A DNA stretch of 64,000 nucleotides from the human T2T-CHM13v2.0 reference genome, Homo sapiens, in NCBI GenBank assembly GCA_009914755.4, contig CP086569.2, positions 7,520,001 through 7,584,000 on the forward strand, read 5' to 3'. The position numbers were made by a program, and so were the translations under genes. Within the stretch, counting starts at the first letter, position 1; each line of letters starts with the position of its first letter. Of the stretch, positions 48,801 through 50,685 are shown piece by piece. The notes beneath the pieces were generated by a model that saw nothing but the letters and a program-made list of their open reading frames with translations, had not been told where the DNA came from and ran no database searches.

Positions 48801-49285
48801 AAGACCTGTCCTACAAGAGCTTCCGAAAAAAGCATTAAATAAGAGACTATTAGCAGTCACTACAAAAAAAAATACACTAAAGTACATAAATAGCTAGCAC
48901 TTTAAAGCAACTACATAAATGTGCAAAATAACCAGTTAAGATCATAGTGACAGAATCAAATCCACACTCATAAATAGTAATGCTAAATGTAAATGGGCTA
49001 AATGCCCCAATTGAAAAACAGTTGAATGCAGGTTTAATATTTAATGGTATGTTGTAATCTAGACACCCATCTAAAATAAGTTCAAAATACAGGGAAAAAG
49101 AACATTCTACCAAGCAAATAGAAAGCAGAAAAAAAGCAGGGGTTACAATTATAGTTTCTTGTACAACAGGCTTTTAGTTAACATGGATTAAAAAAAGACA
49201 AAAAAGAATATTCCATAAGAGTAAAGTGCTATATATACATCCAATGCAAAAGCATCCAGATTATAAAGCAAGTTCTCAGATACCC
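45850..49285 (+). mobile_element. Older-subfamily L1: 5' portion comprising a 5' UTR with tandem subunits of about 270 bp, ORF1 with an internal deletion, and the start of ORF2 (endonuclease domain); 3'-truncated
   Basis: ORF 48294-48500(+) is a coiled-coil segment like L1 ORF1. 48560-48760 reads gvpes.genen...(deletion)...dlgpifnilkkk.fqtrilyltkvsf, matching the ORF1 C-terminus. 48940-49280 matches the ORF2 N-terminus (snphs.ivmlnvnglnapieKQ...YQANRKQKKAGVTI...). Three diverged tandem subunits with ...gccatctttgttgcttgtg / ctgccacatttgctgtttgtg / ctgccattgttgctgctttg lie upstream. The 5' boundary is uncertain and may extend to about 45240. Confidence 0.65.
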
Positions 49286-49399
49286 TCCAAGATGTCAAAT
49301 TAAATGGTCTTAAACAGTCATTACCTTTATATTGCATTTGTTCAGTGTTAAATCTCTGTTGCTGAACACAATGTGCGGACTTGTTAAAGGTCCACTTTT

Positions 49400-50125
49400 T
49401 TTTTTTAACACTTATGGACCTTCTCTCTACTATGAATTATCTTATGTCCAATGAGCTGTGAAAACAAGCTCAATGTTTTGTCACATTTTTCACATTTGTA
49501 GGGTTTCCCTACAGTTTGAATTTTCTTATGATTAGTAAGGTCTGAGAAGTACTTAAAGGCTTTACCACATTCTTCACATTTGTAGGGTTTACCTCCAGTA
49601 TGATTTCTCTTGTGTTTAAATAAGGGTTGAGGAGCATGTAAATGTTTGCCACGTTCTTTATATTTGTAGGGTTTTGTTCCAGTATGGACTCTTTTATGTT
49701 CAGTAAGGCTTGAAAACTTTTTAAAAGCTTTGTCACATTCTTTACATTTGTAGGATTATTTGCAATATGAATTATCTTTTTTATAGTAAAATCTGAGAAC
49801 AACCTACAGTCTTTGCCACATTCTTCACATTTGTAGCATTTCTCTCCACTAAATTTTTTTTATGCTCACTGAAGTTTGAGCACAACTCTAAAGCTTTGCC
49901 ACATTTATTACACTGACAAGTTTTGCTCTGGGTAGTTGATAAACATTGATGAAATCCATTAAACTGCTCTTCTGCCCTTTGCAATTACCCACACTTTGGT
50001 AGTCTTTCTTTAAATGAAAATCAGTAAAGTCACAGCTTTCATATTTTATCAGAATCACTTTTTGGAATGAATCTTTTCTTTTGTGGTCTGTCAATATCTC
50101 TGCAGTTAAATGAAAAGAGCCAACT
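49400..50125 (-). pseudogene. Frameshifted C2H2 zinc-finger exon fragment, resembling the KRAB-ZNF91 subfamily
   Basis: Minus-strand translations: DSFQKVILIKYESCDFTDFHLKKDYQSVG...FNGFHQCLSTTQSKTCQCNKCGKAL (the spacer typical of the ZNF91-family last exon), then finger repeats with [28 protein letters not shown], spread over at least three frames with stops. In minus orientation a polypyrimidine/AG acceptor-like site (ttttgtcttcag) immediately precedes the exon at about 50125. An A12 run lies at the fragment's 3' end (49397-49408). Confidence 0.7.
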
Positions 50126-50685
50126 GAAGACAAAAGAAAAAAATTTCTCCCTCATTAGACTCAGGTGAGTACATTTTACAAACATGTAATTATACAAACC
50201 ACATTAACAAAGTGACAATAGAATACCATAGTCCCTAATTCCTTTACAGACATATAAATTTAACAGTAATATACTTACCAAAATGCCTTTGTGAGAAGTC
50301 TAAGAATCAGTTAAGCATTTGCAGCACCCCAAGTGAGTAAAATGCCAAGAAACATATAGAAGTGTAACAAAACTATTTCATATTTACACACCACGGACAT
50401 TTTTTATCCTATGAAAAATGTAGAGACTGATAACTCCTATCTTACCCTCCAAAAATAAATAAACTGGTGGCACTTATGTCCATGCTTCTGGCTTTCTGAG
50501 ACCTTATCAAAGACTAATTTGTATATTCACAACAGTGTTTAAAGGAAAGGTGGTAAACTTTGACAGTTTTGGGCAGTTGTGACTAAAGACAAAAGACCAT
50601 CAAAAGAAAAAATCTTCAGTGTCATAGACAGACAATGGGCATCCAGCTGACTGCAGGATCTCAATGAGAAATATGGGGAATTACT

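What the first reader, a model, noticed from the sequence alone, without database searches (positions are those of the whole stretch)
49285..50200. KRAB-ZNF (ZNF91-like) zinc-finger exon fragment abutting a 3'-truncated L1: a candidate breakpoint of a segmental duplication or rearrangement
The minus-strand fragment starts with an intron-like acceptor (ttttgtcttcag) followed by the spacer characteristic of ZNF91-family last exons (DSFQKV.L.KYE...NQCL.TTQSK) and about four degenerate C2H2 fingers with multiple frameshifts. It ends in an A12 run about 110 bp from where the plus-strand L1 stops abruptly inside its endonuclease domain (about 49285). L1 insertions are normally truncated at the 5' end, not the 3' end, so a later rearrangement most likely removed the L1 3' part. 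The ZNF piece may be a genomic duplication fragment, because intron sequence is retained, or it may be a retrocopy, given the A-run. ZNF fragments scattered among beta satellite are reported for 19p12.
Basis: partly seen in the sequence, partly recalled or inferred. Interest (0 to 1): 0.5.

Follow-up and report, generated by a model that had tools for sequence, protein, structure and literature searches.

The report
Decayed ZNF91-family pseudogene interrupted by L1
This is the decayed remnant of an unprocessed (intron-containing) ZNF91-type zinc-finger pseudogene lying next to satellite DNA, with the back half of its last exon replaced by the front part of an old L1 retrotransposon; it is ordinary genome debris of a known kind.

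Summary
On the minus strand a ZNF91-subfamily last exon starts at 50123 behind a conserved polypyrimidine/AG acceptor. It carries the family spacer and about eight degenerate C2H2 fingers, not four, with 4 frameshifts and 1 stop. The A-run is A11 and lies inside finger 7. ZNF homology runs on to 49287-49292, where it directly abuts a plus-strand L1 that stops at ORF2 nt 402, in the endonuclease domain.

The ZNF piece is genomic, not a retrocopy. Window 50124-53008 is colinear with intron 3 of five primate ZNF91-family genes.

The L1 junction is not a segmental-duplication edge. Colinearity with the same gene units resumes beyond the L1, in the 3' flank at 44936-43369. The 4.07-kb L1 5' portion (45221-49292), absent from all five paralogs, occupies the place of about 1.3-2.5 kb of exon 4 and 3'UTR.

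Most likely an antisense L1 inserted near the gene's 3' end, and one later deletion removed the L1 3' part together with the distal fingers. Endonuclease-independent L1 capture at a double-strand break is the main rival.

On the 5' side the relic stops inside intron 3 at 53005, against a beta-satellite-like block of at least 11 kb. No KRAB exons are in the window. The relic is ancient (62-66% identity to paralogs) and of low interest.

The parts
53005..64000 (+). Beta-satellite-like block (diverged monomers, modal spacing about 71 bp) that bounds the relic on its 5' (intron) side. A second block in the same orientation lies at about 4000-20800.
   Evidence: The motif ATATGTCACAAT (up to 2 mismatches) gives 163 plus-strand hits, 1 minus-strand hit and 6 in a shuffle. 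The hits are confined to the two blocks, with spacings of about 71, 141-148 and 216. Sequence read; many 60-72% self-hits. Similar arrays lie about 10 kb upstream of the monkey ZNF726-like and ZNF723-like genes (L004, L005). The name 'beta satellite' rests on motifs recalled from memory.
50124..53008 (-). Remnant of the 3' part of intron 3 of a ZNF91-family gene, ending in a polypyrimidine tract and AG (50125-50124).
   Evidence: Colinear blocks against five paralog loci:
- L001 24413-28560
- L002 19391-20640
- L003 36733-40640
- L004 21321-25850
- L005 about 43755-47400, plus one out-of-order hit (52700-53005 to L005 27421-27723)
Identity is 58-70% and each block is unique within its locus. 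The four-way alignment shows the acceptor in the same column.
51860..52938 (+). Ancestral intronic L1 fragment (L1-B), antisense to the ZNF gene. It holds ORF2 nt about 223-762, then an internal deletion, then ORF2 aa 805-885. It is split by a later Alu at 52342-52670.
   Evidence: Local alignment to L1HS ORF2 scores 62 against 26+/-3.5 for shuffles; tblastn. The same two ORF2 pieces with the same internal deletion lie at the colinear place in L001, and ORF1 or ORF2 pieces lie there in L002 and L003. L1-B therefore predates the paralogs' divergence and is not the missing half of the L1 at 45221-49292.
50684..50990 (+). Alu inserted into the intron remnant.
   Evidence: Read (antisense Alu on the minus strand). 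Alu-to-Alu hits. It interrupts the paralog colinearity.
49919..50123 (-). Start of exon 4: the ZNF91-subfamily spacer (..DSFQKVILIKYESC..NGFHQCLSTTQSK), with one frameshift near 49963.
   Evidence: Translation. blastp of the spacer hits only ZNF91-subfamily proteins (ZNF506, ZNF92, ZNF66, ZNF429-like, ZNF138 and others) at E=1e-13 to 3e-19 and 34-44% identity.
49287..49918 (-). Eight degenerate C2H2 finger units (F1-F8). There are frameshifts near 49850, 49752 and 49393, a stop at 49407-49405, and several lost zinc ligands. F8 is cut after about 15 codons.
   Evidence: TRF period 84, Pfam, coordinates, self-similarity of 49296-49746 to 49465-49912.
49396..49406 (-). A11 run inside finger 7. 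It stands where the paralogs have ..gaagaatgtggcaaag.. and is not a poly(A) tail.
   Evidence: Finger homology continues for 104 bp beyond it.
49287..49292 (.). Junction between ZNF finger 8 (minus strand) and L1 ORF2 nt 402 (plus strand). The 6 nt CCAAGA can be assigned to either side and may be microhomology.
   Evidence: The L1HS alignment ends at 49292. The F8 translation ends at 49287.
45221..49292 (+). L1-A, the 5' portion of an old L1. It comprises a putative 5'UTR (45221 to about 48090; GC 45-50%, CpG-depleted, with an internal direct repeat of about 270 bp at 45900-46607), ORF1 (48240-48840) and ORF2 nt 2-402 (48948-49292). It has no 3' part and no poly(A).
   Evidence: PDB L1 endonuclease residues 4-93, E=0.004. 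Pfam Tnp_22_dsRBD 7.7e-5. Composition. It is absent from the corresponding place in all five paralog loci. The 5'UTR assignment is inference only.
44925..45220 (-). Alu lying between the 3'-flank homology and L1-A.
   Evidence: Alu-to-Alu hits.
43369..44936 (-). Homolog of the 3' flank of ZNF91-family genes. It shows that the gene unit continues beyond the L1.
   Evidence: Colinear, same-orientation matches downstream of the paralogs' exon 4:
- L003 43963-46030
- L001 31189-31794
- L002 26321-26559
- L004 27958-28417
- L005 48901-49837
Identity is 60-65%, rising to 81% over one 57-bp L005 hit. L001 and L003 share this flank with each other.

Best explanation
Window 43369-53008 (minus strand) is the relic of the 3' half of one ZNF91-subfamily KRAB-zinc-finger gene unit. 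It is an ancient unprocessed pseudogene lying in a TE-rich interval between two beta-satellite-like blocks.

Shown:
- The relic keeps about 2.9 kb of intron 3, including an L1 fragment that was already in the ancestral intron.
- It keeps the exon-4 acceptor, the family spacer, eight decayed fingers and at least 1.6 kb of 3' flank.
- Between finger 8 and the 3' flank, about 1.3-2.5 kb (distal fingers and 3'UTR in the paralogs) is missing.
- In its place sits the 5' 4.07 kb of an L1 in the opposite orientation. This L1 is cut at ORF2 nt 402 and is absent from all five paralogs examined.

Inferred mechanism:
- A long, probably full-length L1 inserted by ordinary target-primed reverse transcription, antisense to the gene, near the end of exon 4 or in the 3'UTR of a copy that was already dead or was killed by the insertion.
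- A single later deletion of several kb, repaired by end joining (possibly using the 6-nt CCAAGA overlap), removed the L1's 3' ~5 kb with its poly(A), together with the adjacent distal fingers.
- That deletion fused L1 ORF2 nt 402 to finger 8.
- A separate event put satellite DNA against intron 3 at 53005 and removed or displaced the promoter and KRAB exons.

The element encodes nothing and no function is implied.
For: Identity as a ZNF91-family exon 4.

Intron retained, with the acceptor at the conserved position.

Colinearity on both sides of the L1 in 5 of 5 paralog loci.

L1-A is absent from all five paralogs.

L1 order and orientation (5' region, then ORF1, then ORF2 nt 2-402) with an abrupt stop at 49292.

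The intronic L1 is a separate, older element shared with the paralogs.

No KRAB exon anywhere in the window.

The paralogs stay colinear with each other upstream of the point where the window turns into satellite.

Sen et al. 2007 (PMC1920257) state that random deletions removing the 3' ends of classical L1 insertions mimic 3'-truncated insertions. Such deletions are therefore a recognised, simple route to this structure.
Against: The order of events is inferred. No pre-insertion or pre-deletion allele was available.

A single deletion has to start inside the L1 and end inside the exon. That is plausible but unproven.

The 5' 2.9 kb of 'L1-A' (45221-48090) has no homolog in any sequence I could search. 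Calling it a 5'UTR is an assumption.

The 6-nt junction overlap fits both end joining and break-primed reverse transcription.
Confidence: 0.6

Rival explanations
1. Endonuclease-independent (non-classical) L1 insertion. A double-strand break in the distal part of exon 4 was resected and lost about 1.3-2.5 kb. One end annealed by microhomology to an L1 RNA inside ORF2 (about nt 402) and primed reverse transcription to the RNA's 5' end. In one step this leaves a 3'-truncated, poly(A)-less L1 patch in place of the deleted DNA.
For: The L1 is 3'-truncated and has no poly(A). Target DNA is missing relative to 5 of 5 paralogs. There is a possible 6-nt overlap at the junction. Sen et al. 2007 define such loci by 3' truncation, no TSD, no poly(A) and frequent target deletion, seen in 18 of 21 loci (PMC1920257).
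Against: The reported cases are short: 13,383 bp inserted over 21 loci. This piece is 4.07 kb and reaches far into the 5' region. Sen et al. themselves say later deletions mimic the pattern unless the pre-insertion site is known. TSDs and the cleavage-site motif cannot be read in sequence this decayed.
Confidence: 0.2
2. Boundary of a segmental or ectopic duplication. A piece of a ZNF gene (part of intron 3 plus the start of exon 4) was copied into a pre-existing L1, splitting it or truncating it.
For: Both partners are truncated at the junction. L1HS ORF2 homology appears to 'resume' at nt 422 at 52022 on the same strand, which at first looks like the other half of a split L1.
Against: The ZNF unit's 3' flank follows on the other side of the L1 in the right order and orientation in five paralogs. 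The L1 at 51860-52938 overlaps L1-A in content, with ORF2 from nt about 223-373, and ORF1 lies in the colinear block of L002 and L003. It is more diverged and lies at the same intronic place, with the same internal deletion, in paralogs that lack L1-A. Identity to every sampled paralog is only 62-66% over intron plus exon, so there is no recent duplication.
Confidence: 0.05
3. Processed retrocopy of a ZNF mRNA that ends in the A-run.
For: An 11-A run at 49396-49406.
Against: The A-run is inside finger 7, and two more finger units follow it. The exon is preceded by a polypyrimidine/AG acceptor and about 2.9 kb of intron 3 colinear with the paralogs, not by KRAB-B coding sequence.
Confidence: 0.01

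Closest known systems
Unprocessed KRAB-ZNF pseudogenes of the ZNF91 subfamily in satellite-interspersed clusters. [quoted passage not shown] 1998, cited in PMC3018141). My recollection is that the Eichler paper also describes a nonprocessed pseudogene, ZNF209, bounded by beta-satellite blocks.
   Same: A family-specific spacer and finger exon with its intron retained. Flanking satellite blocks of the same type as those upstream of the monkey ZNF726-like and ZNF723-like genes. Disabled by frameshifts, stops and truncation.
   Different: Only the 3' half of the unit is present. No KRAB exons were found, and an L1 replaces the distal fingers. The chromosomal location of this window was not established.
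3'-truncated L1 copies produced by post-insertion deletion
   Same: The L1 has its 5' region, ORF1 and the start of ORF2, but no 3' end or poly(A). It abuts unrelated DNA that has itself lost sequence.
   Different: The deletion itself is inferred, not observed.
Non-classical (endonuclease-independent) L1 insertions, Sen et al. 2007 (PMC1920257)
   Same: 3' truncation, no poly(A), loss of target DNA, possible junction microhomology.
   Different: The piece is much longer than the reported cases and very old. The defining test, comparison with the pre-insertion allele, could not be made.

Membership tests
ZNF91-subfamily KRAB-ZNF gene (last exon) | Tandem C2H2 fingers with an 84-bp period and TGEKPY-type linkers | tested here: met
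   TRF period 84, 4.8 copies. Pfam zf-H2C2_2 2.4e-22. Motifs found only at this place in the window.
ZNF91-subfamily KRAB-ZNF gene (last exon) | Subfamily-specific spacer between the exon start and the first finger (DSFQKV...QCL.T.QSK) | tested here: met
   The spacer alone hits only ZNF506, ZNF92, ZNF66, ZNF429-like, ZNF138, ZNF722/735, ZNF98-like, ZNF726-like, ZNF723-like and ZNF679-like proteins, at E=1e-13 to 3e-19.
ZNF91-subfamily KRAB-ZNF gene (last exon) | Exon-4 acceptor at the conserved position, preceded by homologous intron 3 | tested here: met
ZNF91-subfamily KRAB-ZNF gene (last exon) | KRAB-A and KRAB-B exons upstream | tested here: not met
   No KRAB motif or tblastn hit anywhere in the window. 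Intron homology stops at satellite DNA at 53005. The exons could lie beyond the window end.
ZNF91-subfamily KRAB-ZNF gene (last exon) | Open reading frame through the finger array | tested here: not met
   Four frame changes, one stop, lost zinc ligands, and truncation in finger 8. It is a pseudogene.
Processed pseudogene (retrocopy) | No introns, and a 3' poly(A) at the end of the mRNA-derived sequence | tested here: not met
   Intron 3 is present. The A-run is internal to finger 7.
LINE-1 | ORF1 followed by the ORF2 endonuclease domain on one strand | tested here: met
Independent but weak support: PDB L1 endonuclease E=0.004 and Pfam L1 ORF1 dsRBD 7.7e-5.
LINE-1 | 3' UTR with a poly(A) tail and target-site duplications (classical insertion) | tested here: not met
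   The element stops at ORF2 nt 402. TSDs cannot be assessed.
Endonuclease-independent L1 insertion (NCLI) | 3' truncation and absence of poly(A) | tested here: met
   Criteria taken from PMC1920257.
Endonuclease-independent L1 insertion (NCLI) | Pre-insertion allele showing that insertion and target loss were one event; no TSD; non-consensus cleavage site | not testable with these tools
   No primate whole-genome collection was available, and the sequence is too decayed for TSD or cleavage-site reading.
Segmental-duplication boundary at the L1|ZNF junction | Homology to the source unit ends at the junction | tested here: not met
   Homology to the same gene unit resumes at 44936-43369.
Beta satellite | Tandem monomers of about 68 bp of the Sau3A/beta family | tested here: inconclusive
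   There is strand-specific periodic motif spacing with a mode of 71 bp, and TRF reports 75-bp units. The motif identity comes from memory and no Dfam consensus was available.

The most novel reading that the evidence does not exclude
The L1 piece is a one-step double-strand-break repair patch, that is, an endonuclease-independent L1 insertion primed inside ORF2 and copied to the RNA's 5' end. It would have replaced the distal fingers of a ZNF91-family gene tens of millions of years ago. That would make it an unusually long and old example of this pathway, and the event that killed this gene copy.
Probability: 0.2. Interest if true: 0.2.

Novelty: new member of a known kind. Interest (0 to 1): 0.1.

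Why it matters
It matters little. The locus is one more example of how KRAB-ZNF clusters leave behind unprocessed pseudogene relics that are then reshaped by L1 insertion, deletion and satellite DNA.

Two things are modestly useful:
- The ancestral intron-3 L1 fragment, with its characteristic internal deletion, is shared by marmoset, colobine, gelada and orangutan paralogs and by this relic. It is a handy marker for tracing the family's duplications.
- The relic shows a satellite block abutting the inside of a gene unit rather than its flank.

Tried and rejected
1. Split-L1 idea. L1HS ORF2 nt 422-712 aligns at 52022-52291 on the same strand, just after L1-A stops at nt 402, which suggests one L1 split by the ZNF piece. 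I rejected this for three reasons:
- The intronic L1 overlaps L1-A in content.
- It is present at the colinear place, with the same internal deletion, in paralogs that lack L1-A.
- Direct alignment of the two is not significant (score 25 vs shuffles 19.7+/-2.2).

2. A second, inverted copy of the ZNF intron at 35.5-36.8 kb. I rejected this because the matches are staggered hits to an internally repetitive L1 segment plus Alus, and no ZNF exon follows.

3. Twin-priming (5'-inverted L1). No inverted L1 3' segment lies next to L1-A.

4. KRAB exons. Regex and low-stringency tblastn found nothing credible.

5. Locating the window in public assemblies by exact-ORF look-up, including the ORF that spans the junction. 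Nothing was on record.

6. Rfam scan of the window. No hits.

7. Eichler et al. 1998 could not be read. It is cited only through PMC3018141 and PMC2443715 and from memory.
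Full report
**What is there**

Read on the minus strand, 50143-50124 is a polypyrimidine tract ending in AG. An exon starts at 50123. Its translation begins ..SFHLTAEILTDHKRKDSFQKVILIKYESC...NGFHQCLSTTQSK. This is the spacer typical of ZNF91-subfamily last exons. Eight C2H2 finger units follow (F1-F8, 49918-49287).

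To read them through, the frame must change four times, near 49963, 49850, 49752 and 49393. There is one in-frame stop (49407-49405) and several zinc ligands are lost.

Support is strong:
- TRF reports an 84-bp period at 49431-49836.
- Pfam gives zf-H2C2_2 E=2.4e-22 and zf-C2H2 E=1.3e-12.
- C2H2 and linker motifs occur nowhere else in the 64 kb.
- The large protein search returns KRAB-ZNF proteins. Those that cover 94-98% of the query, spacer included, are all ZNF91-subfamily members: ZNF506, ZNF429-like, ZNF679-like, ZNF723-like, ZNF735, ZNF138-like and ZNF722-like.
- The spacer alone hits only that subfamily, at E=1e-13 to 3e-19 and 34-44% identity.

**Corrections to the observation**

The A-run is 11 A (49396-49406). 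It sits inside finger 7, where the paralogs have gaagaatgtggcaaag. After it come the rest of F7 (TFNKSAHCVQQQRFN) and a truncated F8 (TEQMQYKGNDCLRPFNLTSW).

So the 104 bp between the A-run and the L1 is still ZNF exon. This is confirmed by self-similarity of 49296-49746 to 49465-49912 and by paralog alignments that begin at 49290-49314.

**The L1**

blastn with the L1HS ORF2 5' end aligns nt 2-303 to 48948-49226 (67%) and nt 339-402 to 49230-49292 (78%).

Independent database support exists but is weak:
- PDB L1 ORF2p/endonuclease residues 4-93, E=0.004, next to a spurious receptor hit of similar E.
- Pfam L1 ORF1 dsRBD, E=7.7e-5, just above its cut-off.

Upstream of ORF1, 45221-48090 is richer in GC (45-50%) and completely CpG-depleted, with an internal direct repeat of about 270 bp. 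I take it to be the L1 5'UTR, but that is untested.

The L1 stops at ORF2 nt 402 (aa about 134, endonuclease domain). The six bases 49287-49292 (CCAAGA) can be read as either L1 or finger 8.

**Genomic fragment or retrocopy**

I fetched five primate ZNF91-family gene loci with their introns:
- L001, marmoset ZNF429-like
- L002, Colobus ZNF138-like
- L003, orangutan putative ZNF66
- L004, gelada ZNF726-like
- L005, red colobus ZNF723-like

Window 50676-49421 aligns as one block across the intron/exon boundary to L002 (1306 bp, E=3e-147). The equivalent blocks are seen in L003 (49314-50636, E=6e-143), L004 (E=1e-111) and L005 (E=3e-156).

Further colinear blocks extend the intron-3 homology to 53008:
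- 51020-51254, 51496-51737, 51968-52341 and 52674-53008 against L001 27623-24413.
- Corresponding blocks in L003 and L004, and mostly in L005, where one hit (52700-53005) lies out of order.

Two Alus (50684-50990 and 52342-52670) interrupt this homology. A four-way alignment puts the AG acceptor in the same column in all copies. KRAB-B coding sequence does not precede the exon. The piece is therefore unprocessed genomic DNA and the retrocopy reading is refuted.

**What lies beyond the L1**

Window 44936-43369 matches sequence downstream of exon 4 in the paralogs, in the same orientation and order:
- L003 43963-46030
- L001 31189-31794
- L002 26321-26559
- L004 27958-28417
- L005 48901-49837

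L001 and L003 share this flank with each other. The ZNF gene unit therefore continues on the far side of the L1.

Relative to the paralogs, about 1.3 kb (L004), 1.8 kb (L001) or 2.5 kb (L003) of distal fingers and 3'UTR is missing. An Alu (44925-45220) plus the 4.07-kb L1 portion take its place. L1-A has no counterpart at that place in any of the five loci. The L1|ZNF junction is thus an internal lesion of one pseudogene unit, not the edge of a duplicated segment.

**A tempting false lead**

L1HS ORF2 nt 422-712 aligns at 52022-52291 on the plus strand. This looks as if the L1 resumed 2.7 kb further on and had been split by the ZNF piece. It is not so:
- The intronic L1 extends back to ORF2 nt about 223-373, and an ORF1 segment lies in the colinear block of L002 and L003. 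It therefore overlaps L1-A in content.
- It is more diverged.
- The same pieces (ORF2 aa 125-209, an internal deletion, then aa 804-892) lie at the colinear intronic position in L001 and L003, with ORF1 pieces there in L002 and L003. All of these loci lack L1-A.

It is an older L1 that was already in intron 3 of the ancestral gene.

**The other end**

Intron homology stops at 53005-53008. From there to the window end the sequence is a diverged tandem satellite.

The motif ATATGTCACAAT (up to 2 mismatches) occurs 163 times on the plus strand, once on the minus strand and 6 times in a shuffle. The modal spacing is 71 bp. The hits are confined to about 4.0-20.8 kb and 53.0-64.0 kb.

The same kind of array lies about 10 kb upstream of the gelada and red-colobus genes, in the same orientation relative to the gene.

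L001 and L003 remain colinear with each other upstream of the point where the window turns into satellite. So the window has a second discontinuity there. No KRAB exon is in the window. Whether the rest of the gene lies beyond the satellite cannot be told.

The literature states that the 19p12 KRAB-ZNF cluster is interspersed with beta-satellite blocks (PMC3018141, citing Eichler et al. 1998). The location of this window was not established, and exact-ORF look-ups found nothing.

**Age**

Identity to every sampled paralog is 62-66% across intron plus exon and up to 74-77% within finger repeats. By comparison, L002 and L003 are 71% identical to each other over the same stretch. L1-A is 67-78% identical to L1HS in ORF2. 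Both are old, tens of millions of years on my rough reckoning. Nothing suggests a recent duplication or an identifiable parent.

**Mechanism**

The structure is shown. The history is inferred.

The simplest history has two steps. [quoted passage not shown] Second, one deletion running from ORF2 nt 402 to finger 8. That deletion removes the L1 3' part, its poly(A) and the distal fingers, and it is closed by end joining.

The main rival is a one-step endonuclease-independent insertion at a resected double-strand break. Sen et al. 2007 define such loci by 3' truncation, no poly(A), no TSD and frequent target deletion. They also warn that later deletions mimic them unless the pre-insertion allele is known (PMC1920257). 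Their inserts are short (13.4 kb over 21 loci), whereas this one is 4 kb, so I rank this rival second.

Twin priming is excluded because there is no adjacent inverted L1 3' segment.

**Verdict**

This is an ordinary, ancient, unprocessed ZNF91-family pseudogene relic, disrupted by an L1 and bounded by satellite DNA. The retrocopy option and the segmental-duplication-edge reading do not hold. Interest is low.

Noticed in passing
window ~4000-20800 and 53005-64000: Two blocks, about 17 kb and at least 11 kb, of a diverged satellite in the same orientation (modal monomer spacing about 71 bp, beta-satellite-like motifs). They enclose a TE-rich interval of about 32 kb. TRF misses nearly all of it because the monomers are only about 60-72% alike.
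   Followed up: partly
L004:1-320 and L005:780-1450: Arrays of the same satellite motif (spacing about 75 bp) lie about 10 kb upstream of the gelada ZNF726-like and red-colobus ZNF723-like genes. Their orientation relative to the gene is the same as in the window.
   Followed up: partly
window 51860-52938; L001:24492-25101; L003:36780-37019: An old L1 fragment antisense in intron 3, with ORF2 aa 125-209 joined to aa about 804-892, is shared by the relic and by the marmoset and orangutan paralogs. ORF1 pieces lie at the matching place in L002 and L003. It predates the family's expansion and could serve as a phylogenetic marker.
   Followed up: partly
window 42165-42923: A much younger L1 3' end on the plus strand (ORF2 aa 1099-1275, 90% identical to L1HS as recalled, including an open 123-aa stretch). 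It is flanked by Alu pieces at 42051-42164 and 42910-43100.
   Followed up: no
window 45900-46607: An internal direct repeat of about 270 bp (61% identity) lies within the GC-rich, CpG-depleted stretch upstream of L1 ORF1. It may be a repeated 5'UTR unit of an old L1 family.
   Followed up: no
window 3230-3330: A (GCA)n/(ACA)n trinucleotide run would encode polyglutamine on the plus strand. It creates 121- and 140-aa open frames on the minus strand. Its origin (exon, retrocopy or simple repeat) was not examined, and no exact protein is on record.
   Followed up: partly
window 25818-26178 and 27005-27236: A 184-bp unit repeated twice (83% match) and a (TC)n-rich low-complexity tract of about 230 bp.
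   Followed up: no
window 20844-22031, 28623-28917, 35513-36800: Further old L1 ORF2 fragments in both orientations. The one at 36300-36800 is internally repetitive and gives staggered matches to the ZNF intron's L1 segment, which mimics paralogy.
   Followed up: yes
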